A stretch of DNA of 64,000 nt, taken from assembly GCA_963575745.1 (NCBI GenBank), contig CAUYUJ010000324.1:1-64000 (forward strand), read 5' to 3'. Every line of letters begins with the position of its first letter. Within the stretch, counting starts at the first letter, position 1. Origin of the DNA: Prorocentrum cordatum. Taxonomy: Eukaryota. Shown in pieces: positions 13,860 through 57,986 of this stretch. The notes beneath the pieces were generated by a model. That model made no database searches. It was not told the origin of the DNA and was given only the letters and a program-made list of their open reading frames with translations. Both the position numbers and the translations under genes were made by a program.

Positions 13860-16318
13860 TCATGGCGGGCACCTGTGCAGCACGCCTCATATGCGGCATC
13901 ACGCGCAACTCAACTGCAACAGCCTGGGCGTTCGGGGCACGTGCGTGGTGCTGGGGAGCGGGCGCACAAGACATTGTGGCAAGATGCTAAGCATCCGTTC
14001 AGCCCATGGGCTGAAGCTGAATCCCACCAGCCCTCCGAGCGCTGGGGGGGGGGCCGGGCGGGGGAAGCCCCGGGTGGCCCCGAAATGCCCGGGCGGTCTC
14101 AGATAGATCAGCGACGGCGCCTGCGCTGGCTGATCTGAGGAGGAGGAGGAGGAGGAGGAGGAGGAGGAGGAGGAGGAGGAGGAGGAGGAGGAGGAGGAGG
14201 ATGAGGAGGAGGAGGAGGAGTTGGAAGAGGAGGAGGAGGAGGACGACGAGGTGGAGGAGGCGGAGGGGGGTTTCCACCCGCGGAGGGCGCAGCCCTGGTC
14301 TTCGCCTACCTGAGCAGGCGCTGGAAGCCGAGCCCCCGCCGAATGACGGCGCGGCGCCTCCCTGCGATTACCTGCCGTGCGAAGCGGGCGGGGGCAGGAG
14401 GGAGACGCCGAAGAGACTGAAAAGTAGATTGGGTGGCATCTAGTGCAACGAGGTGGCTGGCCAGTGCGTCGGGGCCCCTTCGAATGAAAAGGTGAATGAG
14501 AAAGGCGCCCAGAGGGTCATCTCCCCAAAATGGGGGGGGCCCTGGAAGAAACTGCCGAAGATGGGGAGAGGACATCGGGCAGGAAACGCAGTGAAGAATA
14601 TCGCCTCCTCCCATGCACCTGCGCCCGACGAAACATCGCCCAGGACCCTGCCGATGCCTGCGGGTGGTATTCCAGGAATTGAAGATCGACTTAAGCACGG
14701 CAGCGAACACAGAACCAGGGGCAACCTCACTGGACAGCAGGATACGTAGAACGCTAAATCCACGCCAGCATCAAGAACCTGCGACGCCCACGTGCGAACG
14801 CGCAGCAGGAGGCGTCTGGCCCCTCTCCTTCGCGAGGGCAGCAGCGAGCTTGGCCCGGGCACCTCTCGGGTGGAGGTCAGGCGGAAGCTTCGGAATAAGC
14901 ACTGAACTGAGGCATTATTCGCGCATGTCGGCAACTATTGAATTGCGGTCGAAGGTTCTGCTCATCGTGTCACAAATGGAGTGGACGAGGGTAGACTTGC
15001 GGGCGACTCGCAACCGCGCGGCTCGGCTCTGCAACTCGAGCGAGGTCGCCTGCGCGCCGAGCCCGAGGGGCTCAAACGAGGGGGCGCTTCTGCCGGGCAT
15101 GAACACCGCGGGCTGCAAGTGGACAACTGGTGGGCTTCCCGTTCAGCTTTAAGAACATGTTTGGTCGGCGCGCGCCCCTGGCTGATATAGGGCCACGCGG
15201 GGCGGGGGGGGAGGGGGCGCGCGTCTCATGAGCAGCGATGCTCGTGGTAGGCTCTTCTGTCATCCCCTTTGCCATAATTGCGCGCTTGAGAACTTCCCCG
15301 CGTGCGCCTTTCCACGAACGACCCCTCCCATCCTTCCCAATCATAAACCCAAGATCTCCACCATCAATTTGGCGATGTTAATGCCAGCGCGTGTGAAGCG
15401 ACCAACAGCTCCACCGACCAGCTCGGGGCTGGTTAGGATGGCGACGCGCTTGGCTGTGTTCAGCATCAGCCCGGTGGCGCATCCAAAAACAACAGATGGC
15501 TCTGGTGGCGGGCCCGAGCGAGCTGAAAATGCCGGCGGCGACCAGCGCAATATCATCGGCGGAGGCTGAAACCTGTTTGGGGAGAGCGGTGGCCAGGACC
15601 TCAATGTAGTGGAGAAGCGGATCAGGAGCCAGGGCGAATAAAACGCCAGAGAGCGGGCGCCCTTGTCTGACTCCTCTGAGGGCCTGGAAGGAGACCTCGC
15701 GGGAAGCCTTGCATGACCTGGTGCAAGGTAAATTCTGGCACAACCACATGATGGCAGCGATGGTGAACTCGGGGGACCGAAACGCACGCATAACATTCCA
15801 GATACATTCATGTAGGGCCGACGGAAAAACAACGCGAAACTCACGCAGACAGGCCCCGCATTCCGCGCGGCAAAGGATGGCGCCCCAGTGCGTGATATTA
15901 AAGCCAACCTCGTGCACATCGCCCATGCTACTTTTACCGCGGATGAAGCCACGCTGAGACGAATGACATTGATCGGCGATGACGTGCGGCAGGGGGCGGC
16001 GATAAAGGCTGCCAGTGATTTTGTTGTCGGCGCTCGGGAGAGCGATGGGTCTCGCGTCTTCGAAGACTTCCACGACGTGACTGGGATCGGGGGGATCGAA
16101 TTTGGCTGGCAGAGCAAGCTTGGAGCAAGTTTCATCGATATGGGGGCCCCGCCCCCGAGGACATGTTCGCGCCCTTCGCGCGGCGCCTCTTGGGCAGCAG
16201 GGCCATCGGCTCTCCAGGCGCTGCAGCATGGGTCGTCGGGGCCTGGAGCTGAATTCCATGCGCAATGAGGCGTGTCCAGGAAAAGGCCAAAGGTTGGCAA
16301 CTAAGGGCACCGCGGTGG
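13860..16318 (-). mobile_element. Decayed LINE ORF2, RT and C-terminal half (copy 1)
   Basis: Motifs SAPGPD, QRGFIRGK, FPSALHE, GVRQGRPLSGVLFALAPDPLL and SADDIALV (decayed YADD); multiple frameshifts; interrupted by (GGA)n at about 14140-14250. Confidence 0.85.
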
Positions 16319-16340
16319 TCCGCTGTCATTCTGGCCCAAG
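16319..16340 (+). other. Relic dinoflagellate spliced leader (DinoSL), copy 1
   Basis: tccgctgtcattctggcccaag matches DCCGTAGCCATTTTGGCTCAAG at 17/22 and lies about 95 nt before the ORF1 ATG at 16434. Confidence 0.55.
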
Positions 16341-22915: not shown

Positions 22916-22937
22916 TCCGCTGCCATTCTGGCTCAAG
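22916..22937 (+). other. Relic dinoflagellate spliced leader (DinoSL), copy 2
   Basis: tccgctgccattctggctcaag matches DCCGTAGCCATTTTGGCTCAAG at 19/22 and lies about 85 nt before the ORF1 ATG at 23022. Confidence 0.75.
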
Positions 22938-27126: not shown

Positions 27127-28852
27127 CTCGGCTCGGGCGTCCCCGGTTTCCTCCTTCACTTGGGGAACATGGATCCTGCCTCTGCCATCTGGGGATCAAG
27201 GTCCGCTGGGACAGCCAAGTGGTTTGCCCTCCTCCTCCTCCTCCTCCTCCTCCTCATGTGGCGCTTCTCAATTTTGTCTGGGCCCTCCCGCTCAAGTCGG
27301 CGGTGTCACCCCAGTCGTTAGGCAGAAAGTGGGCGGGAGGGGTAGGGTATCAAATGCGGCGCGATCGCGCCCAACTTGCCCACCCCGCCTCGCCCACCCC
27401 CCTTTTGCCTTCGCTTCGTCCGGCAAACTCGGGAGTTCGCGTCAAACCACGAAGCCTGGCTGGCCAAGTGTGGAAATGCTGGTCTAATAGACAAGGAGCA
27501 TGCCCACTGCGCACAAGTATAACTACCCCCATACAATCAACGAGTGGTGGTAGACCAGGCGCCAATCGGTGGTGGAATGAGTGGGTATACGTTGGCGAGC
27601 AGATGCCAAGGTTATTCGCCTGTAGGGGTGGAAATTGGTGCGGCAGAGGCAGCATGCAGTAACCTTGCTCGAAGGGTTTGGCTTCCTGGGGGTACTGAGT
27701 GCCACCCACGCAATCGAAAAGTGAACAAGAATGAGCACCAACACCGCCCCTACCCCTAACCCTGGTCGTTCCTCCTGGCAGTCTTCCCCCGCCCCCTTGT
27801 TGGCCACAACACATCGACTATACATCCCTTATTCCTTCCTGGACATACCAAGATATCCTCGCCAACTCCGCCACGGGACCTGGAGACAAAGTTGGAGTGT
27901 ACTCAGGTCCGTTGTGCGCCATCGGTCCTGAATCCGCCAGGCCTTGTGTCCAGTGGGAGTGTTCGAATTCTTGCTGTTGTCGGGGGGACTCCTTTAGTTT
28001 TCTAGGGACGACCCCCCCCTCGCCCCACCCGTCGTTTGAACATCGCCCCCCTGAAATTGCATCCCGGCGAGCTTTTCGGCATCAGATGGCCAAGATGGCA
28101 TGGCCTCCAAGACGACTTCCAAGACAGCCAAGACGACACCAAAACAGCTCAAGATGACACAAGACGGCTCAAGATGCTCTCAAGACATCCTCAAGACGGC
28201 CCAGGAGGCCCCCAAGACGGCCAGACAGCCCCTGCAAGATAGCTCCAAGAGGCCCCAATAGGGCCCCGAGTCGGCCCAAAAGGACCCCAAGAACGCCCAT
28301 GAGACTCGCAAGAGGGCCCCATGACGGCGCTAAAGCGCTCCAAGAGGGTACCACGACGGCCCAGAGAGGCCCCCACGACGGCGTCCGAAGGCATCAGACG
28401 GGCCAATCGCCTCCCAAAGACGGTCCAAGAGGCCCCAAGATGCCCCAAGAGGCCCCCAAGAGGCCCCCAAGAGGCTCCCAGGACTCCCCCAAAATGCCGC
28501 CCAGGAGGCTCCCAGGAGGCCCCCAGGAGGCACCAAGAAGTTACCTCCTCTCGTTGTCGTCGTCGTCGTCGTCTTCCTCCTCCTCCTCCTTCTCCTCCTC
28601 CTCTTCCTGCTACTCCTCCCTACCGCGCGGACGAAGACGTTGTCAGAATCACGACCCTCCACAATTCAGACCACTCGCTGAACTGCAGCGGGGTGTAAAC
28701 TCGACCTTTTCATACCGCGCGGACGAAGACGAGGTCGAGTTCACGACCCGTCCTTATCAGACCTATCGTCGGAAATGCGCTGTTCCTGCACTCGGCCTCC
28801 TTCTGGCTTTGTTGCACGGGCACGGTGGCGGGGTTCGCCGCAGGCAGCTGGA

Positions 28853-29917
28853 TAATTCCACCAACCCTCTGGGCGTAGGTGGTTTAGGGAGTTTTGTTTT
28901 CCCCGTCGGGGAGGGGTTTAACGGCGCGGCGGCGGCGGCGGGCGGCGGCGGCGGCGGAGGCAGCGGCGGAGGAATCGCCACCAGTAGCTGCCAATCCAAA
29001 GACGACTTCTGAATGTGCTGCGGCTCGGGCCAGGCTCGGGTGCTGCGTATGTGTTGGGAGGGCGGGTGAGAGTGATCGACACGGCTTGCGGGCGGTGAGG
29101 GAGCCTTGACCCCTCCCCCATACCCCCTCCCCTGGACCTGGACGGGGGGTTCCGCGACGCGTTGGGCAAAGCGGCCTCGGCGAGGAAGCCAAAATCATTG
29201 GTTTTACACAGGTTTTGGCCCCATCATGGCCTCCTGAAGGGGGGGGGCTAATTGAGCCCCCCCCGTCCTGTGATCGATCTCCTCCAAGATGGCCCCAGAG
29301 GCGCCCAGGAGGCACCAAAAGGCCCCGACATGGCCCCAAGATGGCCCCATGTGGTCCCAAGAAACACCTCAAAGGCTCCCAGGATGCCCCCAAGAGGCTC
29401 CCAAGAGACCCCCACGAAGCCCCAAGAGACCTTCAGAGGCACCCGAGACTCTCCAAGAGGCCTCGGCGAAATTTCCCAAATCACTGATTTTACACAAAAG
29501 GTTTTGGCCACATTTGGGCCTCCTGGGGGGGGTACTGCTTCAGATGAGTCCACGAGCGCCTGGGATGAACCCAAAACCTCCAAGATGGCTCAATATATCC
29601 CAAGATGCCTCAAGATGGCTCCCACGGTGCTCCAAGAGGCCCCAATGACGCTTCAAGACGGCTCAAAGTGGCCAAAGAGCTCCCCCAGGACGCCCCGAAG
29701 AGGCAAACATCCTTCCAAGAGAATCAATGTTTTGGGTGTTCGCGCCTCTTCGCTTCCGATGGCCATCCGAGGCTTCAAGATGACTCCAAGATGGCCCAAG
29801 AGGGCTTCAAGAGCGCTCCCAAGGTTTCCAACAGCGCTTCAAGAGGGCCCAAAGAGGCGCCCAGGAGGCCCCAGGGGGTCCCAATAGGCGCCCCAGAGGC
29901 CTCCACGAGGCCCCCAA
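28853..29917 (+). repeat. Dispersed composite repeat (ccaccaaccct.tgggcgt head, then ccaagaggccc units)
   Basis: Shares ordered blocks with 38903-39480: the head motif, ttcccc.tcggggaggggttta, ccctgg.cctgga.gggggg, and caaaatcattg.ttttac twice. Confidence 0.7.
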
Positions 29918-32900
29918 GAGACCCCCTAATACTTTTTGGTCAACAAGCTCGCGAGGCGGATCGAAAGCCGTCCGGACACTAGTCGGGCCGCGATCAAGCA
30001 GCAGGAAAAGGAAGGCAAACGACGCGAGCGAGCGGGCAGCCACTCAGCAGGAGAGCCAGAACCGATACTCTCAAACCCGGTGGCGTTGGAAATCCTGGCG
30101 ACCAGCAAGTATGCGCACCCAAAATGGCGCGGCGGCGTGAAATCCCGACGACGACCCCGCATACGTCGATGACCTAGCTGCGTTGCTCAGCTCTACGAAG
30201 CAGACGCTGCGCGCCGCCATCGCCCTTCCCTGGACTGCGCGCGCTGCTGGACTCCTAGTGGAAGCACACCTTTGTAGAGGTATCAGGACCGCTGACTCAG
30301 AGGCCCTCCGGGGAACTCTTGAGGAGGCCCAAGTACACTATGAGCAAGACGGGGACAGCGTCCTGATCACCGGGCTTCCAGGCGAGCTGATTATGACCCT
30401 CCTCGCGGAAGGCGTGGAACAACATTCCATCGACTCATGCGCCCCCTTTCAGCGCCCGTGCAGCTGCGCCTTCAAGACGGCCCTCGTGCCCGCAGGACGC
30501 CATGAATGATGGCGTAACCTCATGGAATACACCCCCTTCGGGAGCTCCTCAGTGCGGGGCCAGCGGCTATGCCTCGGCGCCGCGGTGGTGTCGCGCGCGG
30601 CGGAAGGTGAACAGCCCCCCCCCCCAGGGGGGCGGCTCACTAAGGCGCAAGACGACGCCCTCACTAGAGGAACATGGGAGCGCCCCCACCCCAAGATGAG
30701 GGACAGGGCCATGGCCCTCCACCTGGCAAAACTCCCCCCCACCCGCGCCGCCGCGGCATGGAACTCATACCTGGTCTCCCTTGTCCCCCGCGCTGCCCAC
30801 TACCCCACCCCCGACGTCATGCGAGAACGCGCCTTACGTGCGCAACTCAGGGCCGCATTTGGGCTTGCCGCGGCGTCGTGGGTCCCCGACTTCATCCTTT
30901 CGGGGTTAGGTGTGCGCTTCCAAGCGCCGCGTGCCCCAAGGTGCCCAGCAGCCACGGCTCGGGCCGTCTCAGCCAGAGCGCGCGCCCTGAACGACTTCTG
31001 GGGGCCCATGCCAGCCAGAAAGCGCGCCAGAATTCGGTGGAACAAGCTACTGAAGTGGGCGGCCGAAGCCGCGCAGCAACTAGGGACGCCCCGACCCAAA
31101 CCTAGAGTTATCACAGAGCGCAAGGGGGCGCTAGCACTCCACCGTGCACGTGAGCAACCCGAGCTACTGGAAGGACAACGCCTTGGGAAGGTAGTCTACG
31201 CCGCGGCATGGGCACAAATGCGCAGCTCGCTGTTCACCAAATGGCTGACTGAAACCAGTCCAAAACAGAAGATGGCACCCCTCGAACGGGGAGGAGCGAG
31301 GCCCACTGCCCCACTGCGCGTCCTACACGGAGACCCTCCACGTCATCCGCATACTGTGCAACGGCCTTCCAGGCTCTGCAAGGCTGAGAAGTGAAGTCGA
31401 GCGGCCCCCGCGGCAATTTCCCCGCGGCGCGCGCGCCAAGTACGTCTGGATCACAGCCGGGCCCGGCGACGAAGCCAACGCCTGGTGCGCCGGATGCATA
31501 GGTCACGGGCCACGCCCCTCTGCGCTTTGGCAGCTACTCGATCCCAACTCCCTGCCCCTCACACTACGGGGCCAGGCCGAAGCCTACGCCCACACTCAGG
31601 GCAGCCTACGGGCCCCCACCAGAGCAGGCCCATACGGTCATTGTTCCCTCTGCGGGCTTGGGGAGGCGTCGACAGAGCACGCGTGGCACTGGTGCCCGGC
31701 CGCCGCCCTGGCTTGGTGCACCGCGCGGGGCCCGGGCCATCCCGAGTCCCTTGCGCGGGCCATAACCTGCAACGGTGACCACCAACCCCTCCTTGCGAAG
31801 GTGCTTCACCAGATCTCCTTCAGATACTGCGTCAACCTTGCCGCCACCCCCCTCGAGGCCAGCGATGCGGCCATACTCATTCTTCAAGGCGTCGTCGCCG
31901 CGGACACCGATCAGCAAGGCGACAGCGACGATGACGCCCGCGACGGCGACGAGCCCCCGAGGCACGACAGCCCGGACGAGACCGCCGTTTGGGCCCCAAT
32001 GCAAGATACCTGCCCCGCGCGCCACCCGCGCGCCACCCGCGGCAGGACCATATGCGGAGCCGCCAGGCCACGCATGACCCGCCACGCGCTTCGCGCAGGC
32101 TCCCGGTCGTCACCAGCCACTGCCGCGCAGGAGACAAGCTTGCAGTTATCCAGGCCACCCAGATGCGCGCGGGGTGGATGCTGCCCGGCCGAGGCTGGTT
32201 CCCCTGCCCCAAAACCGACAACAACCCCACGGCTAACTGGACGTCAGCATACTGCCGAGACTGTCGCGCAGACACCACAACGCTGACGGCGAACACCGAC
32301 CGCGAACCAGGGGACGAAGTAACCGTCCGCAGCTCCCCCTTCCCAGACACAGACAGCACCCAATGGCCATGCGAAGACACCTTCGATGGCGGCGCCCGAA
32401 GAATCGACGGCCGCGCCAGGGTCTCAGGCGCAGGCGCGATTTTGTGACACCACGACCCAGCGACAGGTACCCCCATAATAGTGGCGGTTGCCATAGTAGC
32501 GCTCCCCGGATGCAGCAGCGCACAGACGGCCGAGGTAGCCGGCTGCCGCGCTGGACATGCACTCCTCCCCCACCTCCGCGGCCCCCTGCGGGCCGCCAAG
32601 ATTGCTGGGGACAACTTAGCGGCCATCCGATATGGTGCGGCACGGCCAGGTACAGGAGGCTACACCTGGCTCAGTAATGGAGGGCGCCCTCGCTTAGGCG
32701 GAGAACATTGGCTGGGTGCTTTCTTGGCAGGGCGTGAAGCGCCGCCTGAATAAAGCTGCAGATGGCCTCGCCACTCCTGGAGTGTTCTGGGCGGATGCTT
32801 TACTCAACGCAGGCGACCTCGCAGTCCACGCTCACATACATTGGGCAGAAGCCCGCGACGCCCTCCCAGCCCACTTCCAAACTGTGCAAGGTCCAGACAT

Positions 32901-32990
32901 CGACCTTTGCGACCCGATGGAGTGTGCCGCCGCCCTCTTCTGCCTGGAAAACCCTCCGCACCCCCCCCCCATCGCCCCTGGTCGCTGATC
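29918..32990 (+). mobile_element. 5'-truncated, decayed non-LTR retrotransposon pol: RT C-half, CCHC knuckle, SET-like segment, RNase H
   Basis: DPLI (about 29920), AYVDDLAALL (about 30160), thumb-like AAAWNSYLVSLVP, CSLCGLGEASTEHAWHWCPA (about 31642-31700), and RNase H motifs FDGGARR..SGAGAIL, SAQTAEVAG, IAGDNLAAIRY, VKRRLNKAADGLA (32382-32790). Confidence 0.8.
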
Positions 32991-33087
32991 GACCGATCGC
33001 CCCGCCCACCGAGGCCCGCCCGGCAGCGGGGCGCGGCCCCCCAGCTTATCAAGGTACTCTAGCGGCGATCAGCTGCGACCCTTGAGG

Positions 33088-36000
33088 ATGCCCAAGCGCA
33101 AGTGCAATCAAGGGCCGCTGGCTGGCTGGCCAGCGCACGAGGCATGTCGCCCAAACGGCCCCATGCCCGCAGATGGCCTCCCCCCCTTCCGTGCCCGCGA
33201 ATGCCCCTGGCTGCGTTGGGCACACTTCAACGGCGAATGGTGCTGGTGGTGTGAGCTCTGTCAGAAGCACTGTGACGGGAAGGGGCACCTGCTACAGTGG
33301 GACCACTGGCACGAAAGTGACAGGCAGTGGGGCGACGGGTGGCCCGACCCCCGGGATTTCATCTCTGCGGGCAACCTGTGGACCATGACGAACGGAAGGG
33401 AATATGACCACGTCCACGACTGCAGAATCAAGAGGCACCCATGGCGCGGGTGGAAGACGACGGAGCCGGAGAAGGTCCAAGGGCAACCCCACCTCCCCGG
33501 CTGGTCTTTCCCAGACGACTGGGATCACGTTCCCGTCAACTTCCCCTACAGGGATGGCGCCTTCGACTTTGCCACCCCCTCAAGCACCACCCATTCCGCA
33601 AGGGCGCGCCCTCGCCAGCAGCTGGGGGGGACCTGGGCAAGGACGACCAGGGGTGGAGCGAGACCGATGGGCGGGCCTCTTGACAGAGACACCCCCGGCC
33701 ACGCCACCGCCTACCACCTGCGCACCCCAACCAGACACCACACGGGAGAAGACATTTGCGACATTCCCAACGCCTCCAGCAGAGCATCGCCTCAGGAGTC
33801 AGCCGACAGATCGCGCGCTGAGGCGCCCGAGGGAGAAGATCGCTTCGGCTACGGAGACACGCCCATCAGGGGTGAGGAGGGTAATTCTGGAGTCGCCGGC
33901 CGTGGCTGCGGCCGATGCGGTCTGGCAGCCATACTCCGCCCCGCCAGCTGTGGAATCGCTCAGTTCCGTCTGCACGCACCACTGGGGCAGATCCCGGAGG
34001 CCGTCCTCCCCCCACCACACCGGGCGCAGGATCTAAGGCAAAGGGGACGGGCTCTCGAGAGGCTGGCCTGGACCGAGTGCACGGCGTCGACCGAGACCGT
34101 CTGGGGCAATTCCGTCAAGGCCAGGACAGACCTCAGAAGGCAGAGCTGCGCCCTGGGAGTTTCCGCCACCCCAATCGAGGAGAACTCAGAGTGCGATGCC
34201 CTCGACCGCTTCCAGCTGAGGAACACCTTTCCACCCCAAGACGGGAAGGTGCCGCTACATCTACATTGGCCCTCGGCGTTCAGAGTCCTCCTCAAAGGTC
34301 AGGACGCGGGACAGGACGCGCACGTCCTCCTTCTCAGCCTCACCAGCCCAGCAGTGGACCAAGTCGCCGCCGTCAAACTTCTATGGCCCCCCGACCTCGG
34401 AGGCGCCATCCCTCCGGGCGACTGCCAGGCACTGGGTTTTCCAACGGGCTCGCGGTACCCCCAGCAACGAATGCATCGCCGTTAAAAGCACAGACATGTT
34501 CGGGGTATACCACGCAGATGACAGCATCGACCAGCCCACCTACGTAGGTGAGCCATGGTGCAGGCTGGACAAGGCGCCCCCATGATTCAGTTTTGGCGGA
34601 TCCCGGCTGCAATCGCCAAGATCTACAGGCTGCAGCAGACCCCCCGCGATCTCATTGGTACCCACCTGGGCGCCGTCACCTCCCCACCTTCCGCGCTGCC
34701 GACCAAAGGGGCAAGGCCGCCGCCAACAACGCCCTCAACACCGCCAAGTGTGGGCAGGCTCTCCAGGCACGCGCCAAAGCCACCCTGGAAGTCCGCTTCC
34801 CCTGCACCGACCTACCTGCGCCCAACGCCGTCTCGGCGATGCCCACTCACCCCGCCGGACTTCCAGCCCCCCCCCTTTCACCGACGCAGAGGTGGAGGAC
34901 GCCACCGGGCAGGTGTTCCAACGCGCCCGTGACCTACCAGCACCGAAATCCCTGGAGGACGGGGCCAAGCGCCACAGTCTCAACCGCGACGCCACAATGG
35001 CTTCGGCAGCCTCCACCCGGCATCGCGTGACGATCGTACACGGCCCCCCTGGTACAGGCAAAACAATTTTCTCGGTCGCAACCGTGGGCGCATGGGCGGG
35101 CTCGCTCTTCCCCGGGTTGTCGGTCGCTCTGGCTGCAGGTTCCAACGCGGCCGCCGACCAGCCGGCACTGGCCCTACTCGCCGCTCACAAAGACAACAAA
35201 CTGGCCTGCAGCACGGGTTTCCCGTCCAAGCGCGCGCGCCTCGCCAAGGATTTAAGGTGGCCAAGGAGCTGGCGGGGCTCACCCCAGGAGGCCGCTACCA
35301 GAGGGCCAACGGCAGACTCCCCTGCGAAGGCGGTTCATCCTCCAAGAACGTCCCCGCCTTCAGGACTCAGCTGCTCAAAGACGCGAAGACTGTCATAGCC
35401 ACGCACGAATCTGCTGAAGCACTAAAGAAGGCCGCCCCAGTGGTCCTTCTCATCATAGACGAGGCAGGGCAGGCGCGCGAGCTCGTGGCGGCCATGTCCT
35501 TGGACAGTGGCATTCGCTCAGAAGGACACCTAGTGCTGGTCGGCGGCCCCAGGCAGCTCCCCCCCACGGTCATCTCCAGAAAGGCAGGGGACCAAGGGTT
35601 GTGCCTCTCCATCTTCGACCGTCTACACCAGGCGCTAGGGGGGCACCAGTCAGCCGTGATACAGCTCAGCCTGCGTTGCCGCCTGCACCCCCTGCTGCTG
35701 GCCCGGCCCAACTGGGTCCTCTGCAACAGCACAATGCAAACTGGACTAGCTGACCCTCGGACCCAGAGGCCCCTAGTCAAGGTCTACCATGGCAGGAGTT
35801 CCAGCCCTGGAGCAACGTCAGGCTCGAAGAGCTAGCGCATGCCGCCCGCACCACCAGCGACGACGCGCACCAGATGCTGCGCAACCTGGACCCTGGAAAA
35901 CAACCCGCAGGAGAGCGGCACCGGTTCCTACTGGTCGACAACCCCTGGAGGTTACATCCAAGATGCACGCAGGATACGCCAACCTGCTGGGGGCAGCGCA

Positions 36001-38900
36001 GACGGTAGACATCACACGCGCCCTCCTCCCCGCAATGGAGGAGGGAGTCACGGTTCGGGTGGTCATCGGCTACCAGCTGTAGTGCGCCATCCTCGAGAAC
36101 AGATGGCCCCAGAGCGCCCGCAGCGTCAGCGGCGCACTCAGGCAGGCCAAGGCCAAAGGCAAAGGGAAAGGGAAGGGCGAAATAAGCAAAGGGAAGGGCC
36201 CCGCCGCCCACCCCCCATCACGCCCCCCCGACACAAGCGACTACGCCAGCGTCTTCGAGCAGAAAGACTCAGGACTCACGGGCATCTCCCTGCGGTTCCC
36301 AGGCGTGCGGCGCGTTGCAGAGGATCACCTTGCAAGCGGCAGGCTCACTCTCTCGACCATTGACTCCAGCCAGGGCGGCGAAGCGGACCTTGTCATCTTC
36401 CTGACAACGAGGTCCAACAGATGGCACGACTGGGGTTCCATGGACAACGCCAACAGGGTGAACGTGGCAATCACCAAAACCACGCGCTACGTGATCATCA
36501 TCGGTGACGGAAAGATGTTCGCCGCGGCCACGGGATCTCGCCTCCGTGAGCTCTCCGAGCACGGCCGCTTCGCCAAGCTGTGGGTACGCTTCCAGCACCC
36601 AGAGCACATAAGCAGTCGATGGACCCTCACTGTCGACGAGAGATTCGACCCCATCAAGGACCTCACCTCCTGGATCCCTGAATCCCCCCCACACGCAGGA
36701 GACGAAGTCATCGAGGGGCTGGGCAACGCGATAGTAAAAACCCGAGCCTCAATCGAGAAGAACTTCGCAGACAAGATTGCAGCTCCGCTGGGTACAGAAT
36801 TTTCATGGACCTGCCTTGGAGACGCCATGCGCAGCAGCCTGCAGAAACTCGTCGAGGACCCCGCCATGGGGGTGTTCATGTACACCGTCGCTGGCCTACA
36901 CCCCCACCAGTACTCCATGGCCGACACACCAAGGCAGCCGGGCCTATTTGACCGCAGAGCATGGAGTCACCTAGGGTTCTGCTGCGACGTAAAACTGGGC
37001 ATAGACGCCAGCAACCTCGTCTACAACTTGACGTGGGCAGCCCTGGCATGGTCCCTCGGGCTGGGCACCCCCTGGGACGACAAGAGCTTAGCCGTCCCAG
37101 ACGCGTCGCTCCCTCCCCTGCCCAGGGTGAAGGGCGTCAGCCGCCGCCCGATGGGCGCTAGCCGTTGCACCCTCCCCGAGGTTCTACACCAGTTTCCAGG
37201 GGCATGGAACCGAGAGACGGGGATGTGCAGGAGGCACCGCGCACGCCCAGGAATGCAGCACCTGAAGTCCCTACTTCGCACGGGCCAAGCCAACTCAGAG
37301 CTAAGACGTTCCCTTCTCAGCAGCGACGGCCGCCCCCTGGACACCACCGCACTCAGAATCCTCCTCGTTGTCATGATGATCCAGCTGCGCGAGCCTCGGG
37401 CGACGCTCTGGCCCTTCCCACATCCAGAGGCCACTGGGGACATCATGGAAGCAACCGTGGGCATCTGCTTCCCTTGGCGGAACGTCCACCTCGAGTACAG
37501 AACCAAGTGATCTAACCCCCCTACACGGGAAATTCGAGGACGCCATCAAGCACATCAGCACGATCGCCACGTACGCCCACCACCACAAGGCTGCAGCCGA
37601 GCACGGGTGCCCAACAACCTGGGCCGGCATGCTGAAAAGCAATTCCCCCCTGGAGGCCTCCATGAGGGTGCTAGAGGAGCTAGTCCAACCAGCCGTGGTC
37701 AGTCCCCTGGGCAAGAGCAAGTGCTCCATCTGCACTCTCCACAATGAACTTAGCGGGTCAGAGAAAGGGCTCGGATGCCCAGGCTCAATGACAGACCTAG
37801 AGTATATCGGAGGAGGAATTGCCATGTCCAGCAGGCGGCTCGACGATGACTCCCCCGCTGCCCCGGCCCCCGGAACCCTACTTATCCCGCCAAGGGTGAA
37901 CGACGACAGGTTCCGCGTCGAGCAGGAAGATGGCCGGTTCGATTGCGATGGGGATGACTGCCCAAAAAATTGGATCAGGGGCACTGCCGGCACCTGGCAG
38001 GACGACGACACAAGGGAACTCCTCGCACAGAACCGCTCCCAAGCTTACTTGCAAGGCAAGAACTGCAGGTGGCTGTGCGAGCAGTGCTGGGTCAAGTCCG
38101 TGGAAAAGAAAGGCATCGAGGCCCCCCTCGCCCCATGCGATTGCGGCGAAAAGAAGTCACTACCGCAGCGTCTGCAGGCATACAAGCGCGCAATGGACGA
38201 GACACGTCATAGGAAGAAATCACGCACACTCCCGTCCTTGGATCGGCTCCCGATTGGATACGGGCGCCTTGACACGGCCCCGACCCCCACCAGCCTTTGC
38301 GACCTCGTCATGAAAGCCCCCTCAGCCTACAGCCCCCGGGCCACTGGCACCACCCTACCTGCTCACAAGCTGTCAGACGGAAGGTTCGGGCTCGATTCGC
38401 ACCTCACGGGCACCTACTCTGCCCAATGCGACACCTGCCAAACAGGAACACCCTTGTTTGAGTGGGCGGTAAGCAGCCCAGCCTTAGGCTGCTTCTTGTG
38501 GCGCCCAGAACCCCGAAGCATCCACCGTCGCCGAGACCAGGCTACCGCCATGGGACCTCATGCCCACCCTCTGGACCCAGCGGCAGTGGAACGCCGGCTG
38601 GGCATGTAGGCGGTGCCTCATCCACATCTGGAACGTTGCCCCAGGCACGCTTGACCACACACTGGACCAGCAGTCCACACGCGCATACCCCACGGCACCA
38701 GCCAAGCGGGCAGCAACAGCAGAAGTGCAGACGGAGCGCCACGACATCAACGTCTACCTCACTCCGGACTGCGCTAAGGCTGCAGCCACGGGTGCATACA
38801 CAAAGCCACCCGTCCCAACCGGAGCGCCGACCCCTCCCACCAGCACTGGCCAGGGCGGCCCCGTCGGGGAGAGTAACGGGTCAGGAGCTGCCGCGCGGGA
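33088..38900 (+). pseudogene. Frameshifted intronless gene: N-terminal Zn finger, Upf1/Sen1-like SF1B helicase, Cys-rich C-terminus
   Basis: WCELCQKHCDGKGHLLQWDH; helicase motifs in order: VHGPPGTGKT (35042), GSNAAAD, IIDEAGQ (35458), LVGGPRQLPPTV, SIFDRL, LRCRLHP, TIDSSQGGEAD (about 36356), RVNVAITK; then repeated CxxC pairs at 37700-38620. Confidence 0.85.
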
Positions 38901-38902
38901 CA

Positions 38903-39480
38903 TCAAATCCCACCAGCCCTTTGGGCGTGAGTGGTTTAGCGAGCTCTCTCTGTCCTCAACACCCCCCTTCTTCCCCTTCGGGGAGGGGTTTACCCCTCCC
39001 CCTCCCCCCTCCCCCTGGGCCTGGAGAGGGGGGGCCGCGGGTCGTCAGGGGGGTCAATTTCGAATCCTGGAAGGGGCTAAAAAACGATACCCCTCGCGAG
39101 GATTCTGGCCCCGACGGTGGGGGCAGAAAAAATGCTCTCCTCTTCTTTGAAACCAAAATCCTTGATTTTACTACGGTTTCGGCCCCATTTTGGCCTTCTG
39201 AGGGGGCAGCGCTCCTCTTCCTTCATAGCAAAATCATTGATTTTACAGAAAGGTTTTGGGCTCATTTTCTCCTTCTCAGGGGGCAGCGCTCATTTGCGCT
39301 TCTGAGGAGGTCGCAAGAGGCCCCAATATGGCCCCAAGAGGCCCACAGGAGGCTCCCAAGAGGCCTCCAGGAGGCCCCCAAGAGCCCCCCAAGAGGCCCC
39401 AAGAGGCCCCCAAGAGGCCCCCAAGAGGCCCCAAGAGGCGCCAAGAGGCCCCCAAGAGGCCCCCAAGAGGCCCCGGTCCC
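38903..39480 (+). repeat. Second copy of the dispersed composite repeat
   Basis: Co-linear similarity to 28853-29917. Confidence 0.7.
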
Positions 39481-39570
39481 CAACAGGCGGGTCGGTTCGG
39501 GTCGGCGGGAAATTAAAATTATCCCGGCAAAGCAACCGAACATCGATATGTAGAAGCATAGCTGGAGGGG

Positions 39571-39915
39571 TGTATGCCCAAACGAGACACTGCTATCAAC
39601 GCACGGAACTTGAATGGGTGTATGTCCAAGCGAGACACTGCTATCATCGCACGGAGCTCGAATGGATGTATGTCCAAGCGAGACACTGCTATCAACGCAC
39701 AAAGCTTGAATGGATGTACCTCCAAATGAAACACTGCCATCAACGCACGGAGCTCGAATGGATGCATGTCCAAACGAGACACTGGTATCAACGCACGGAT
39801 GCTTGAATGGGTGTACGTCCTCACGAGACACTGCTATCAACACACGGAACTTGAATAGATGTATGGTCAAACAAGACACTGCTATCAACGCACGCACTGC
39901 TATCAACGCACAGAG
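39571..39915. repeat. 48-bp tandem repeat, about 7 copies
   Basis: Unit tgtatgtccaagcgagacactgctatcaacgcacggaacttgaatgga at 39571, 39619, 39667, 39715 and onward. Confidence 0.9.
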
Positions 39916-40059
39916 CTTGACACTACACAGTTGTATCACAGACTCGCAGGACAGTAGGACCCGCAGGACTACATTGTGTACAAAGTATTATGTGCAGGGA
40001 CTCGTAAGACCTGTGTCTCTACTGGTGTGCTGGGCTAGTCCATGCAAAAGCGTGCAAAA

Positions 40060-40350
40060 ACATGCACTTTGCCAGACGTCTTGGAAGTCTGCAAAAGCGG
40101 CACGCTGAGCTGTGGTGGCAGGCTGCAAAAGCGGCAGCCTGCAAAAGCCTGCACTTTGGCAAACGTCTTGGAAGCCTGCAAAAGCGGCAGGCTGAGCTGT
40201 GGTTGCAGGCTGCAAAAGCGGCAGCCTGCAAAAGCATGCACTTTGGCAGACGTCTTGGAAGTCTGCAAAAGCGGCACGCTGAGCTGTGGTGGCAGGCTGC
40301 AAAAGCGGCAGCCTGCAAAAGCCTGCACTTTGGCAGACGTCTTGGAACTG
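40060..40350. repeat. Tandem repeat of about 88 bp, roughly 3 copies
   Basis: Unit tgcactttggcagacgtcttggaagtctgcaaaagcggcacgctgagctgtggtggcaggctgcaaaagcggcagcctgcaaaagcc. Confidence 0.9.
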
Positions 40351-40530: not shown

Positions 40531-42700
40531 TCACCTCTCCCGCTCGTCTTGCAGAAAGTCGCGCCAATCCGGCGGCTGCCAAGAGTCGATGATGCGCCGA
40601 GACCCACCGCCCGTGCTGCCGCCGATGTCCAGGTAATCCCCTCCCGCAGTACGGAGGCGGCCGTGTCCTAGCGCCGCAATCGCCTGGTTCCGGTTGACTC
40701 GCAACTCGCCGCTGTCCCACTTCCGAAGCACGTCCAACTGCTTGCGCGTGAGAGTGGGAACCTCCTGGCCCTGGTCGGCAGGCTGAGTAGCACCGCCACG
40801 TGAGAGCTCTTGCCGATAGCGGGCGAGCCGCTCACCCTCGTTGTAGCGCGAGATCGCTTCAGCCTTGTCGTGGTGGAGGCGGCGGCGCTCTTCCTTCGTG
40901 ACTTCGTCGTGCGCAGGTGGCTCGCTGGGTTCGGCGCGCAGGGCTTGGGCGAGCATGTCAACGTCGAAGCGGCCGGAGAAAGCCAGCACCTCCCAGATCT
41001 GTTTTGCGCCGCACACACGTTGCAGATGCCGGCACCACCGCTTACGCTTCTGCTCTCTGAGGAACTTAGCGAGACTCCCTTGGCCTGCCCCTTGGGGCTG
41101 GCCACCTTGTGGTGGAGTCTTGCCTTTCGCCTTCCCCTCCTCGCCTTTTCCCGCAGACTGAGAAGCTCCGCGAAAACCTTGTGGTGGAGTCTTGCCTTTC
41201 GCTTTCCCCTTTTCGCCTTTTCCCGCAGGCTGAGAAGTTCCGCTAGAACCTTGTGGTGGAGTCTTGCCTTTCGCTTTCCCCTTCTCGCCATCTCGTTCCT
41301 GTAGCGCCAGCTGGTGTTCGGACTGCTCGTACTCTGTGCGAACACGTCTTGCGAGTTCCCCGCGCTCAGCGTCGGCGAGGACGCGCCGCAAGTCGGCGAT
41401 GTTTTTGCTCCGCAGAAACTCATGGCGAACCTTAAGGACAGACGCAATGGCTCGGACAGTCTCCGCCTGCGACGCGAAGGCGGTGTCGCAGTCCGAGCCA
41501 GGCTGAGAAGCACCAGCTGGATCTTTGTCCGCAGGCTGCGCGGGCGTCCTCTTCTTGAACAGCAAGAGGCTGAGGTGGTGGAGGAGTTTCGGGTCGTAGG
41601 CCGCGTCGTACCTCTGGCCCCAATACTCCCTCAACTCCTTGCGCAGCTCATGCGCGCGCCGATTAACTTCATCCTCGGGCTCGTCGCAGGCTGCGGCGTC
41701 GGCCGGCGACGTCGGCGAAAGCGGCGCACGCACAGGGGCGGGGCTCGGGGGCCGGGACCAGTGCACCGAGGAGCCCTCCACCTCGGTCTCTGAGCCGGCG
41801 TCGGCGTCAGGCAATCCTCCGAATGCAATCTTCCGCCTCTTTGTCTCCCCAGGCTGAGAAGCATCAGGGGCGGTGAGCACGACCGCAACAGCATCGCGTG
41901 CGTCGTTTCGCATGCCACGGTCCATGTAGGAGGCGCCAACAGCGACGGGCTGGAAACGCGCGACTGCTCCGCAGACTGCCGCGCCGTCGCCTTTGCGGTC
42001 CGCCGGGGGGGCGAAGACTTCCCATAGCGCCTCGTCGTCAGTGTGGCGTTGGAAAGCTTCACGCGCCTCCTGCGCGGTCAAGTTGTTGTCGCCGACTACG
42101 AGGCGCGCGACCGGCGTGCCCGGCTCCCCAGTACTGAGAAGCACGGCGATCCCGTCCAAGTGGAGTCGGAGAAACCGAACTGCTTTCTGTCGCGTGTGAA
42201 TGCTGGGAGGTTTGCTTCCGCAAACGATGTGCATGTTTCCGACGACCACGTGAACTTTGTCATGGCCTCCTGTCTGCACGTTGAACCGTGAGATCACTGC
42301 GTCCACTTGTCGCGCGATGGGGACGTGCCAGATGTATGCGTCCTCGCGCAGGGACACGTCAGCAGGCTGAGAAGCACCGCCGAAGCCCCATAGGCTCAAG
42401 TAATTGGCGACCTCGCAGAAGCCGATGCTGTCGCCGAACGGCTTGGTCAGGATGTCTTTCACGTTGATGGATGCTCGACTCAGGCCTCGACGAAACGCAC
42501 CGACCTCGCACCCAAAGAAAAGGTCAGCATCGACTTCCTCGACTATCTTGGCGCAAATTCCGCCCGAAGTTGGAGCAGTGAGTCTTGGAGTTCTTCCCCA
42601 TCATCATGCTCTGCTCGAACCCGAAGTTAAAAGAGGCGACCGTAAAAGACGCAGGTTGAGGATCACAACGAGCAGGCGCGGCCGCAGGCGTGTGTCGGTC
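40531..42700 (-). CDS. Endonuclease/exonuclease/phosphatase (EEP) family protein with a long C-terminal extension; one frameshift near 42560 and probably inactive
   Basis: FTVASFN, DADLFFGCEV, VVGNMH, LVVGDNN, KGD and NDARDAV (Arg at the catalytic His position) occur in canonical EEP order; 643 open codons at 40531-42462; three KGKAKGKTPPQG repeats. Confidence 0.7.
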
Positions 42701-51986: not shown

Positions 51987-52086
51987 NNNNNNNNNNNNNN
52001 NNNNNNNNNNNNNNNNNNNNNNNNNNNNNNNNNNNNNNNNNNNNNNNNNNNNNNNNNNNNNNNNNNNNNNNNNNNNNNNNNNNNNN
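51987..52086. other. Assembly gap (100 N)
   Basis: Run of exactly 100 n after a poly(C) tract. Confidence 0.99.
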
Positions 52087-57055: not shown

Positions 57056-57986
57056 ATGAGTTTACTGTTCTCGCCGTTTCGGGTTCCCGACGCTCCGGGA
57101 TGGTCCCATAGTCCCCCAAGATCGCCCCAAAGCGTCCTAAGAGGCCCCGAAGAGGCCCGCAAGACGGCCCAAGAAGGCCCCAAGACGGCCCAAGGAACCC
57201 CCAAGACAGCTCCATAAACCTCCAAAACGGCTCGCAAGTGCCCAAAAAGGAACCCACGACTGGCCAAACAAGGCCCCAAGACGGCCGCAGAAGGCCAAGG
57301 GGCCCCGTAAAGGTTCCAGAGGCGCCTACGAGGCTCCCCGAAAGGCACTTTCAGAGGCCCCCAAGAGGCTCCCACGATGCCCCCAGGAGGCCCAAAGAGG
57401 GCCTCAAGAGGCCGCCTCTTCTTTTTCCTCCTCTTCCCCCTCCTCCCCCTCGTCCCCATATTCCTCCCTCTCCTCCTCCTCCTCCTCCTTTTCCTCCTCT
57501 TCCTTCTCCTCCCCCTCCTCCTCCACCTCCCGATTTCGCTCCTCCGCCTCTTCTTTTCCCAACAGTTCTTCCAAGGGGTTCCGCGACGGCTGGGGGGACA
57601 TATAGTTCAATAGTCTGGCCAGACTTCGGCACAAGGTTTGGCCGCGTGGCCTTTCCCAAAAGGCAGTGGGCGGCGGTGATTCGCCGTAGGCGTCTTCGAT
57701 ACTTCTCCTTGCAAGGAAGTCCTAATGACATTCGAAAACCCAACGAAAGCCTGCCGAAACCGGATTTTTTGTTTGGTGCTGGGTGCCTAGCAAGCGGGAT
57801 CGGAGCATGTCGAGTCGTCGTAGGAGCGCGCCGCATCGGCGATGCATCGGCGATGGCGGGATGGAGAAGATTGGGCTCCAGACCTCGCAGCATCGCCGAT
57901 GCGTCGGCGATGCGGCGTGATCTTCCGATCCCGTCCATTCGGGCACGATTTGGGCGTCTCCTGCCCGTCCCTCACCGGGCCTGAAT

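What the first reader, a model, noticed from the sequence alone, without database searches (positions are those of the whole stretch)
29918..38900. Non-LTR retroelement apparently carrying its own Upf1-like RNA helicase gene
Seen: about 9 kb of plus-strand, C/A-skewed, microsatellite-free and apparently intronless coding-like DNA, the longest such stretch in the window. It reads RT (YVDD), CCHC knuckle, RNase H, then about 100 nt later a second very long frameshifted ORF with a Zn finger and the SF1B motifs in Upf1-family form (GPPGTGKT, SNAAAD, DEAGQ, G.P.QLPP, R.HP, TIDSSQG.E, RVNVAIT). Known: Upf1-like helicases (UPF1, MOV10, Armitage, SDE3) are host cofactors or restriction factors of retrotransposons; the LINE-borne helicases I know of are RNA-virus-type SF1, not Upf1-type. 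Inference: this is one element family encoding a 3' Upf1-like helicase (RNP remodelling, NMD evasion or anti-silencing), which I do not recognise as described. Both ORFs are decayed to a similar degree, consistent with co-insertion.
Basis: partly seen in the sequence, partly recalled or inferred. Interest (0 to 1): 0.85.

Follow-up and report, generated by a model that had tools for sequence, protein, structure and literature searches.

The report
LINE remnant beside Upf1-like helicase pseudogene
A decayed copy of a giant Upf1-type helicase gene lies 99 bases downstream of a broken LINE-like reverse-transcriptase remnant in a dinoflagellate-type genome, and whether the two travel together as one mobile element, which would be a new kind of cargo, could not be settled here.

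Summary
The sequence facts hold. At 33088 to about 38900 (+) lies a full-length but broken, intronless SF1B helicase gene with 5 frame changes and 1 stop. Pfam finds AAA_11 and AAA_12, and the nearest solved structures are Upf1/NAM7 and Sen1. It belongs to a multi-copy family. The one intact full-length relative found (P0002, 2945 aa) is colinear with it, starts at its own Met at the same place, and has no RT domain.

Upstream (about 30040-32988, +) the motifs RT motif 4-like, YVDD, CCHC and RNase H stand in canonical order. No profile, sequence or fold search recognises this part, so it is a LINE pol remnant by motifs only.

The pol stop (32986) and the helicase ATG (33088) are 99 nt apart with no tail or repeat between. 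The same high-copy roughly 600-bp unit plus an 11-nt microsatellite flanks the block on both sides. Both halves are repeated in one public DNA run.

No second copy of the junction could be retrieved: no genome is held, and metagenome, viral and protein searches were blank. "One element carrying a helicase" is therefore my leading reading at about 0.4, not shown. Rivals are chance or nested adjacency, a one-off template-switch chimera, and another carrier.

The parts
28107..29926 (+). Upstream flank. It holds arrays of the 11-nt microsatellite (CAAGAGGCCCC)n. One full copy of the roughly 600-bp 'tail unit' (28854-29466) is colinear with 38906-39474. A further partial copy follows: the 77-bp piece at 29455-29532 and microsatellite at 29769-29926.
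   Evidence: TRF; self-BLASTN; summed contig depth in the thousands in run X1.
29927..30035 (+). Left edge of the block. This is about 110 nt of unassigned sequence between the microsatellite and the first RT-like motif. It appears more abundant in run X1 than the RT body, so it may not belong to the pol remnant.
   Evidence: Sequence. No other copy in the window. X1 depth at variant sites 29960-30023 is 97-364, against 11-62 at sites 30314-32605 (table 3).
30040..31394 (+). 5'-truncated reverse-transcriptase remnant. It holds a motif 4-like stretch (frame 2, 30040-30105), a frameshift, YVDD (30162-30173), then a thumb-like region. There is an in-frame TGA at 30507-30509. RT motifs 1-3 and any endonuclease are absent.
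   Evidence: Three-frame reading. Resemblance of the motif 4-like stretch to the Pfam-supported RT at 15381-16325(-). Pfam, PDB and protein search are negative. ESM Atlas first hit 0.97 is to unnamed clusters, with RVT_1 only a rank-22 lead.
31642..31695 (+). CCHC knuckle (C-x2-C-x9-H-x4-C) of the kind that follows the RT in L1/I-type LINE ORF2.
   Evidence: Regex hit: 2 in the whole window against 1.4 in shuffles, so not significant alone. zf-RVT lead at 0.91. Pfam negative.
32364..32988 (+). RNase H-like remnant. It reads DGG...GAG, ..AE.., then NKAADGLA (32749-32772). There is an in-frame TGA at 32445-32447 and a frameshift near 32700. The ORF ends at TGA 32986-32988.
   Evidence: Pfam and PDB are negative on the read-through with X. 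A single-sequence AlphaFold model has pLDDT 39; its beta-beta-beta-alpha order fits RNase H from recall only, and Foldseek found nothing.
32989..33087 (+). 99-nt spacer between the pol stop and the helicase ATG. It is 73% G+C and holds no A-rich tail, no microsatellite array and no spliced-leader relic.
   Evidence: Sequence; composition; DinoSL search.
33088..38900 (+). Full-length, intronless, frameshifted Upf1-like SF1B helicase pseudogene of about 1,930 codons.
- N-terminal C2H2-like finger, 33250-33306.
- Helicase core, 35042-36475, with motifs I, II and V/VI present.
- K/G-rich insert, 36155-36178.
- Family-specific C-terminal extension, 36530-38650, ending in a CxxC motif at 38602-38631.
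- Lesions: 5 frame changes (near 34420-34876, 35258-35271, 35773-35947, 37508-37520 and 38542-38567) and one stop, TAG at 36080.
   Evidence: Pfam AAA_11 and AAA_12; PDB. TBLASTN of P0002 aa 3-1848 is colinear with 33127-38691 in frames 1,2,1,2,0,1. Finger residues are invariant with P0002. P0037 ends about 80 aa after the last shared motif, so the 3' end is probably complete.
38906..39474 (+). Downstream 'tail unit'. It consists of a G/C-rich stretch, two 77-bp repeats at 39137-39291, then (CAAGAGGCCCC)n from about 39296. It is either the element's own 3' UTR and tail or the flanking high-copy repeat into which the block was inserted.
   Evidence: Colinear 74-84% matches to 28854-29531; TRF. 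X1 summed depth jumps from 135 (38416-38849) to 9231 (38850-39283) and 59408 (39284-39717).

Best explanation
The block 29927 to about 38900 (or to 39474 with the tail unit) is the relic of one retroelement insertion. The element would be a 5'-truncated non-LTR (LINE-type) element whose RNA carried two things:
- a pol ORF with RT, a CCHC knuckle and RNase H;
- 99 nt downstream, a second, separately initiated ORF for a roughly 1,900-aa Upf1-like 5'-3' helicase, followed by a short 3' region and an 11-nt microsatellite tail.

Shown:
- The helicase identity, and its colinearity with an intact 2,945-aa relative that starts at the same Met.
- The motif order of the pol remnant.
- The tight, tail-less, same-strand junction.
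- The shared flanking repeats.
- The repetition of both halves in another data set.

Inferred:
- The two ORFs are transcribed and copied together.
- Target-primed reverse transcription began in the microsatellite and stopped inside the RT, which gives the 5' truncation.
- The helicase ORF is translated by re-initiation, or from a trans-spliced sub-message.
- The helicase serves the element, for example by stripping proteins or structure from the G+C-rich template RNA, by working with RNase H on RNA:DNA hybrids, or by blunting host RNA surveillance of a bicistronic RNA.

This copy itself is dead.
For: 1. The pol stop (32986-32988) and the helicase ATG (33088) are 99 nt apart on one strand, with no tail, microsatellite or SL relic between them. 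A LINE fragment that lacks its own 3' end is unusual unless the element continues.
2. The ATG position is conserved. Residue 3 of intact P0002 aligns at 33127, and the finger residues C55, C58, H67 and H73 are invariant.
3. The helicase copy is full-length at both ends relative to P0002 (5') and P0037 (3'), while the pol is 5'-truncated. That is the pattern target-primed reverse transcription (TPRT) gives for one unit.
4. The same unit plus microsatellite lies at both ends of the whole block and nowhere inside it.
5. In run X1 both halves are covered by diverged contigs: 3-13 contigs at listed RT sites and 3-23 at helicase sites. Summed depth is level across the junction (RT bins mean about 49, helicase N-terminal bins about 52) and rises about 3-fold only inside the helicase gene from about 35.4 kb, as 5' truncation would give. 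The tool warns that contig depth cannot rank parts, so this is a hint only.
6. Lesion density is similar in the two halves.
7. The helicase family behaves like repeat cargo: it is intronless, multi-copy and mostly fragmentary. For example, P0009 reads partly in the window's other frame.
8. There is precedent. Dinoflagellate LINEs carrying a captured host enzyme in a separate ORF and lacking poly-A tails are described (SymbioLINE-Dnmt, PMC5890265, passages read).
Against: - No second copy of the junction was seen.
- The RT half is unrecognised by Pfam, PDB or protein searches.
- None of the 47 longer helicase relatives scanned (of 150 listed) has RVT_1, RNase_H or Exo_endo_phos.
- Family members with other N-termini exist, such as RING finger plus helicase in P0037. 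They look like ordinary host genes.
- P0002 is a stand-alone ORF on 12.6- and 19.2-kb contigs whose remaining sequence I could not see.
- CpG observed/expected and G+C differ somewhat between the halves: 0.92 and 65.5% against 0.77 and 63.7%.
- The other RT remnant in the window (15381-16325, -) has no helicase beside it.
- The 68-fold depth step at about 38.9 kb shows that the tail unit is a discrete high-copy repeat and not just a truncation gradient.
Confidence: 0.4

Rival explanations
1. Independent neighbours. The helicase is a pseudogenised paralogue of an expanded dinoflagellate host gene family, and an unrelated 5'-truncated LINE fragment happens to lie, or was inserted, just upstream of it. 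The adjacency would be unique to this locus.
For: - Relatives with host-like architectures and no RT exist: P0037 (RING finger plus helicase), P0014 (annotated in Prorocentrum/Polarella), and none of 47 scanned with an RT domain.
- The intact relative starts at its own Met.
- Composition differs slightly between the halves.
- Helicase sites show about twice as many X1 contigs as RT sites.
- Dinoflagellate LINEs without tails are known (PMC5890265), so a missing tail at 33.0 kb is not decisive.
Against: - This needs a LINE 3' end to fall within 99 nt of the ATG, in the same orientation. That is roughly a 1e-3 to 1e-2 chance per gene by my own rough estimate, though the scan selects for such cases.
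- The whole block shares one pair of flanking repeats with none between the halves.
- Depth is level across the junction (weak).
Confidence: 0.3
2. One-off chimeric retrocopy. During target-primed reverse transcription of a helicase mRNA, the RT switched template to the 3' part of a LINE RNA. A single insertion then joined a truncated pol to a full-length helicase message, but no element family carries the helicase.
For: - It explains a full-length helicase, a 5'-truncated pol, a clean junction and common flanks.
- Template-switch chimeras are an established by-product of LINE reverse transcription (my own knowledge, not from a call).
Against: - No DinoSL relic lies at the helicase 5' end, where a mature dinoflagellate mRNA would carry one. 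The only match in the window is at 22917-22937.
- The switch point would have to fall just after the pol stop.
- The helicase family's many decayed, intronless copies would still need another way to spread.
Confidence: 0.15
3. The helicase belongs to another kind of mobile or viral DNA, such as a large DNA element or an endogenised virus gene. The LINE remnant is an unrelated insertion at its edge.
For: - The ORF is giant and intronless (8.8 kb intact in P0002) and has no recognisable domains outside the helicase core.
- The family is multi-copy.
- High-copy ORFs of unknown function lie nearby, for example 40534-42600(-).
Against: - Two scans of viral contigs found no relative.
- The nearest solved relatives are cellular Upf1/Sen1.
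- No transposase, integrase or capsid signal is seen among the long ORFs of the window (85 outside the block, 14 in and beside it) scanned with Pfam.
Confidence: 0.1

Closest known systems
Upf1-like SF1B helicases (UPF1/NAM7, SEN1, IGHMBP2/SMUBP-2, DNA2 group)
   Same: It has the Pfam AAA_11 plus AAA_12 core, with motifs I (GPPGTGKT), II (DEAGQ) and V/VI present. The best PDB matches of the intact relative are NAM7/UPF1 (E 3e-21) and then Sen1.
   Different: - No UPF1 CH/zinc-knuckle domain is detected. The N-terminus instead has a C-x2-C-x8-H-x5-H finger.
- A K/G-rich insert lies inside the core.
- An extension of at least 800 aa with CxxC motifs matches no Pfam family.
- The gene is intronless, multi-copy and, in this window, dead.
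SymbioLINE-Dnmt, dinoflagellate LINEs with a captured DNA methyltransferase (de Mendoza et al. 2018, PMC5890265; passages read)
   Same: It is a dinoflagellate LINE-type element (Exo_endo_phos, RVT_1, RNase_H). It carries a host-type enzyme in a separate ORF, lacks a poly-A tail and has conserved UTRs.
   Different: There the cargo is a DNMT in ORF1, upstream of pol. Here it would be a helicase downstream of pol. In that work linkage was shown across hundreds of copies, and here it is not shown.
Insect TRAS/R1 and Jockey LINEs with an added helicase domain (PMC4686597 and PMC5563155, search listings and abstracts; PMC6338049, passages read)
   Same: A LINE carries an SF1 helicase at the 3' side of pol, with proposed roles in silencing suppression or in helping reverse transcription.
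   Different: The insect helicases are RNA-virus (tobamo-like) SF1 domains fused in frame to ORF2. Here the helicase is a cellular Upf1-type protein about ten times larger, in its own ORF.
L1/I-type LINE ORF2 C-terminal layout (RT, CCHC knuckle, RNase H)
   Same: The order and rough spacing of YVDD, CCHC and the RNase H motifs match, and the copy is 5'-truncated.
   Different: No profile recognises the remnant. No endonuclease, ORF1 or target-site duplication can be seen in this copy.

Membership tests
Upf1-like SF1B helicase | RecA1 domain with motifs I/Ia/II (Pfam AAA_11) | tested here: met
   AAA_11 at E 2.9e-6 (34586-35398) and 1.6e-14 (34933-35835). GPPGTGKT and DEAGQ read directly.
Upf1-like SF1B helicase | RecA2 domain with motifs V/VI (Pfam AAA_12) | tested here: met
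   AAA_12 at E 1.5e-11 on 36083-37510. TIDSSQGG and RVNVAIT read directly.
Upf1-like SF1B helicase | Open reading frame able to give an active enzyme | tested here: not met
   Five frame changes and one TAG relative to P0002. The intact relative P0002 keeps all motifs.
UPF1 proper (NMD factor orthologue) | N-terminal CH (UPF2-binding zinc) domain | tested here: not met
   No such Pfam hit on the window ORFs or on P0002, even at E<=5. A different C2H2-like finger is present.
Upf1-like SF1B helicase | 5'-3' unwinding of RNA or DNA | not testable with these tools
   Needs biochemistry on an intact member such as P0002.
Non-LTR (LINE) retrotransposon | Reverse transcriptase domain (RVT_1) | tested here: inconclusive
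   No Pfam hit at E<=10. Only a motif 4-like stretch and YVDD and a weak Atlas lead.
Non-LTR (LINE) retrotransposon | Endonuclease (APE-type or REL-type) | tested here: not met
   None in this copy. This is expected if the copy is 5'-truncated at 29927-30040, so it says little about the family.
Non-LTR (LINE) retrotransposon | C-terminal CCHC knuckle and RNase H | tested here: inconclusive
   The motifs are present in order. Pfam, PDB and fold searches are negative. zf-RVT lead at 0.91.
Non-LTR (LINE) retrotransposon | Many copies with a common 3' end, variable 5' truncation and different flanks | not testable with these tools
   No genome is held. Run X1 shows both halves repeated, but its contigs are about 300 nt and no junction-spanning piece was listed.
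   Metagenome scans, viral scans (60, 61) and protein searches gave no further locus. None of the 47 scanned relatives is fused to an RT.
Insect LINE-borne viral SF1 helicases | Helicase of the RNA-virus SF1 type fused in ORF2 | tested here: not met
   Viral_helicase1 reaches only E 0.014 on P0002, against AAA_12 at 1.4e-25. The helicase is a separate ORF with its own ATG.

The most novel reading that the evidence does not exclude
A family of dinoflagellate LINE-type retroelements carries, as a separately initiated 3' ORF, a 1,900-2,900-aa Upf1-like helicase with a C2H2-like finger and a large private C-terminal region. It would be the first retroelement found to encode the class of helicase that host cells otherwise use to police or assist retrotransposons. 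The helicase may be expressed from the element RNA by re-initiation or by spliced-leader trans-splicing.
Probability: 0.38. Interest if true: 0.75.

Novelty: new variant of a known kind. Interest (0 to 1): 0.45.

Why it matters
Upf1-family helicases (UPF1, MOV10 and relatives) are known as host factors that restrict or assist retrotransposons. A LINE that brings its own would invert that relationship. It would also add a second class of captured host enzyme, after the DNA methyltransferases, to dinoflagellate retroelements, and it would help explain the repeat-driven growth of these very large genomes.

Even without linkage, the work defines a multi-copy, intronless, giant helicase family with one intact member. 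That member could be expressed and assayed.

If the adjacency is unique to this locus, the finding reduces to two ordinary pseudogenes side by side.

Tried and rejected
- **Whole genome.** None is held for this window.
- **Earlier findings of this scan.** Four look-ups returned nothing.
- **Protein searches.**
  - The N-terminal helicase ORF with 'longer' found none, but P0002 lay outside the length range searched.
  - The RT thumb ORF with 'near' found none.
  - P0002 residues 1115-1850 with 'near' found only itself.
- **Contig scans.**
  - Metagenome scan with the N-terminal alignment A1: 123 pattern matches, 0 relatives.
  - Metagenome scan with the C-extension alignment A3: 40 matches, 0 relatives.
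  - Viral-contig scans with A3 and A1: 0 relatives.
- **Sequencing runs.** No RNA holder was listed. One DNA run (X1) held 14% of the sampled words, and X2 and X3 held next to nothing. No listed contig piece spans the junction.
- **Self-comparison.** TBLASTX of the block against the rest of the window gave only low-complexity noise, and nothing at 40 bits or more with filtering on.
- **RNase H-like ORF read through with X.** Pfam and PDB found nothing. The AlphaFold model had pLDDT 39, and Foldseek gave no match at E<=0.001.
- **Helicase C-terminal extension.** AlphaFold from alignment A2 gave pLDDT 44.6, too poor to search. My passing idea that a GD..EA..G stretch recalls RNase III has no support from Pfam.
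- **Spliced leader at the junction.** No match. The only DinoSL-like match in the window is at 22917-22937.
- **Literature.** Five full-text searches found no description of a retroelement-encoded Upf1-type helicase. The library is partial, so this is not proof of absence.

Full report
**Observation**

The window is G+C-rich (0.53-0.71). From 28 to 40 kb it is steadily C>G and A>T skewed. Between 29927 and 38900 Tandem Repeats Finder reports a single 28-nt array, while both flanks are full of repeats. No genome is held for the window. Four look-ups of earlier scan findings returned nothing.

**The helicase half is real**

- Three of 14 ORF pieces hit Pfam: AAA_11 at E 2.9e-6 and 1.6e-14, and AAA_12 at 1.5e-11.
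- The nearest solved structures are NAM7/UPF1, a Sen1-like 5'-3' RNA helicase, SMUBP-2 and DNA2.
- An exhaustive HMMER search with the ORF 36083-37510 gave 560 proteins at E<=1e-3, 40 at <=1e-10 and 8 at <=1e-30.
- Most strong hits are 60-170-aa fragments, 50-85% identical, covering the roughly 330 residues beyond the helicase core. That extension is therefore a conserved, family-specific region.
- Of 16 hits looked up, 11 come from one very fragmented EukProt data set, 3 from ENA, 1 from Logan, and 1 is an annotated Prorocentrum/Polarella protein.

The only intact full-length relative found is P0002 (2945 aa; two ENA contigs of 12.6 and 19.2 kb).

- TBLASTN shows its residues 3-1848 colinear with 33127-38691 in frames 1,2,1,2,0,1, with one TAG at 36080. 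That makes five frame changes and one stop, and no intron-like gaps.
- Its Met1 corresponds to the ATG at 33088, and the C-x2-C-x8-H-x5-H finger is invariant between the two.
- Its best PDB matches are NAM7/UPF1 (3e-21) and Sen1.
- Pfam sees only AAA_11 and AAA_12 in it, even at E<=5.

A second relative, P0037 (RING finger plus helicase), ends about 80 residues after the last shared CxxC motif (window 38602-38631). The window copy is therefore probably complete at its 3' end near 38900.

**The RT half rests on motifs**

- Pfam finds nothing relevant at E<=10 on nine pieces of this half or on a read-through of the RNase H-like ORF with X at the stops.
- PDB sequence searches are blank.
- A protein search with the thumb ORF found nothing.
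- The ESM Atlas gave only leads: zf-RVT on 64% of a cluster at 0.91, and RVT_1 on 10% of a rank-22 cluster at 0.89.
- A single-sequence fold was too poor to use.

Against this, four recalled signatures stand in the canonical LINE ORF2 order on one strand within 2.6 kb. They are Y[AV]DD at 30162, C-x2-C-x9-H-x4-C at 31642, DGG..GAG at 32385 and N..AD.LA at 32749. Whole-window six-frame counts were 3, 2, 6 and 1, against 0.3, 1.4, 0.9 and 0.07 in shuffles. The patterns were tuned after reading the sequence. A motif 4-like stretch at 30040-30105 resembles that of the Pfam-supported RT remnant at 15381-16325(-).

I accept a 5'-truncated LINE-type pol remnant as the most reasonable reading. It carries at least three frameshifts and two in-frame TGA codons (30507 and 32445).

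**Junction and borders**

- The pol ORF ends at TGA 32986-32988 and the helicase ATG is at 33088.
- The 99-nt spacer is 73% G+C and holds no A-rich tail, microsatellite array or spliced-leader relic.
- On the left the block starts at 29927, immediately after an (CAAGAGGCCCC)n array.
- On the right, helicase homology ends by 38901. From 38906 a roughly 570-bp 'tail unit' (G/C-rich stretch, two 77-bp repeats, the same microsatellite) runs to 39474.
- That unit is colinear, at 74-84% identity, with 28854-29531 upstream.
- The whole block therefore lies between two copies of one repeat, with none between its halves.

**Evidence from a public run**

One DNA run (X1) held 14% of the sampled words. 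At 80% likeness 20,760 of its contigs were laid, mostly on the microsatellites.

- Both halves are covered by short, 80-90% identical contigs: 3-13 contigs at listed RT sites and 3-23 at helicase sites.
- Summed depth is about 49 over the RT bins and about 52 over the helicase N-terminal bins. It is about 151 from 35.4 kb onward, then 9231 and 59408 over the tail unit and microsatellite.
- Level depth across the junction, with a rise only inside the helicase gene, fits one unit subject to 5' truncation. The tool states that contig depth cannot rank parts of a gene, so this is only a hint.
- The 68-fold step at about 38.9 kb shows that the tail unit is a discrete high-copy repeat.
- No listed contig piece spans the junction.

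**Search for linkage elsewhere**

- Two metagenome scans and two viral-contig scans gave no related locus.
- A search with P0002's private region found only itself.
- I scanned 47 of the 150 listed relatives with Pfam (all but one of at least 350 aa). None carries RVT_1, RNase_H or Exo_endo_phos.
- Since the helicase is a separate ORF, the lack of fusions weighs little. It does show that stand-alone and differently equipped family members exist.

**Interpretation**

- For it: the tail-less same-strand junction, the conserved start, a full-length helicase next to a 5'-truncated pol, the common flanks, similar decay, and the repeat-like behaviour of the helicase family. There is also the precedent of dinoflagellate LINEs that captured a DNA methyltransferase in a separate ORF and lack poly-A tails (PMC5890265, passages read).
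- Rivals: independent neighbours (0.3), a one-off template-switch chimera (0.15) and another carrier element (0.1).
- If the model is right, the helicase would most plausibly remodel the G+C-rich template RNP or hybrids during reverse transcription, or shield a bicistronic RNA from surveillance. All of that is inference.

**Comparison and novelty**

- The helicase is a member of the Upf1-like SF1B group by its core, but it is not a UPF1 orthologue because it has no CH domain.
- The insect LINE-borne helicases are RNA-virus SF1 domains fused into ORF2 (PMC6338049, passages read; PMC4686597 and PMC5563155, listings and abstracts). That is a different helicase class and a different layout.
- Five full-text searches found no retroelement-encoded Upf1-type helicase in the held library.
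- If linkage holds, this is a new variant of a known kind (a LINE with captured cargo). If not, it is two ordinary pseudogenes.
- The decisive test is a copy census of the junction in the source genome, and inspection of the contigs that encode P0002.

Noticed in passing
window 22917-22937 (+): A 21-nt match to the dinoflagellate spliced leader with 3 mismatches (0 expected in 100 shuffles). It is likely a relic leader marking a retroposed gene, and it supports a dinoflagellate origin for the window.
   Followed up: partly
window 15381-16325 (-): A second reverse-transcriptase remnant. Pfam gives RVT_1 at E 6.1e-6, below the gathering score, with a clear motif 4 and a decayed YADD. It is not close to the pol remnant at 30-33 kb, and no helicase lies beside it.
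   Followed up: partly
window 40534-42600 (-): An intact 689-aa ORF with an in-frame 72-bp tandem repeat (K/G-rich, 41104-41289). Pfam finds nothing at E<=1 and PDB only a chance-level match. Contigs of run X1 cover 40.3-41.0 kb at about 98-99% identity with depth 89-99, so it is a young, high-copy repeat gene of unknown kind.
   Followed up: partly
window 28107-29926, 38906-39474, 57098-57416: The 11-nt microsatellite (CAAGAGGCCCC)n and an associated roughly 600-bp unit recur in the window. They are extremely abundant in run X1 (summed depth up to 59408). This may be a satellite or a SINE-like partner of a LINE.
   Followed up: partly
window 39571-39894 and 40049-40347: Two further tandem arrays lie directly downstream of the block: a 48-bp unit repeated 6.7 times and an 87-bp unit repeated 3.4 times.
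   Followed up: no
proteins P0004-P0013, P0024 (database hits to 36083-37510): The closest fragments (65-85% identical) are all filed under a prasinophyte label in EukProt (EP00959). Yet the window carries a dinoflagellate spliced-leader relic, and other relatives are from Prorocentrum/Polarella. That data set may be mislabelled or mixed.
   Followed up: no
protein P0009 against window about 36790-36850: The first roughly 20 residues of this database 'protein' match the window's frame-1 reading and the rest match frame 2. The database fragments therefore themselves come from frameshifted copies of the helicase family.
   Followed up: partly
window 37380-37510 (C-terminal extension of the helicase): A conserved ..GD..EA..G.. 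stretch reminded me of the RNase III signature (from recall only). Pfam gives no such hit on the window ORF or on P0002, and the fold model was too poor to test it.
   Followed up: partly
window 51987-52086: A run of 100 N, which is an assembly gap.
   Followed up: no
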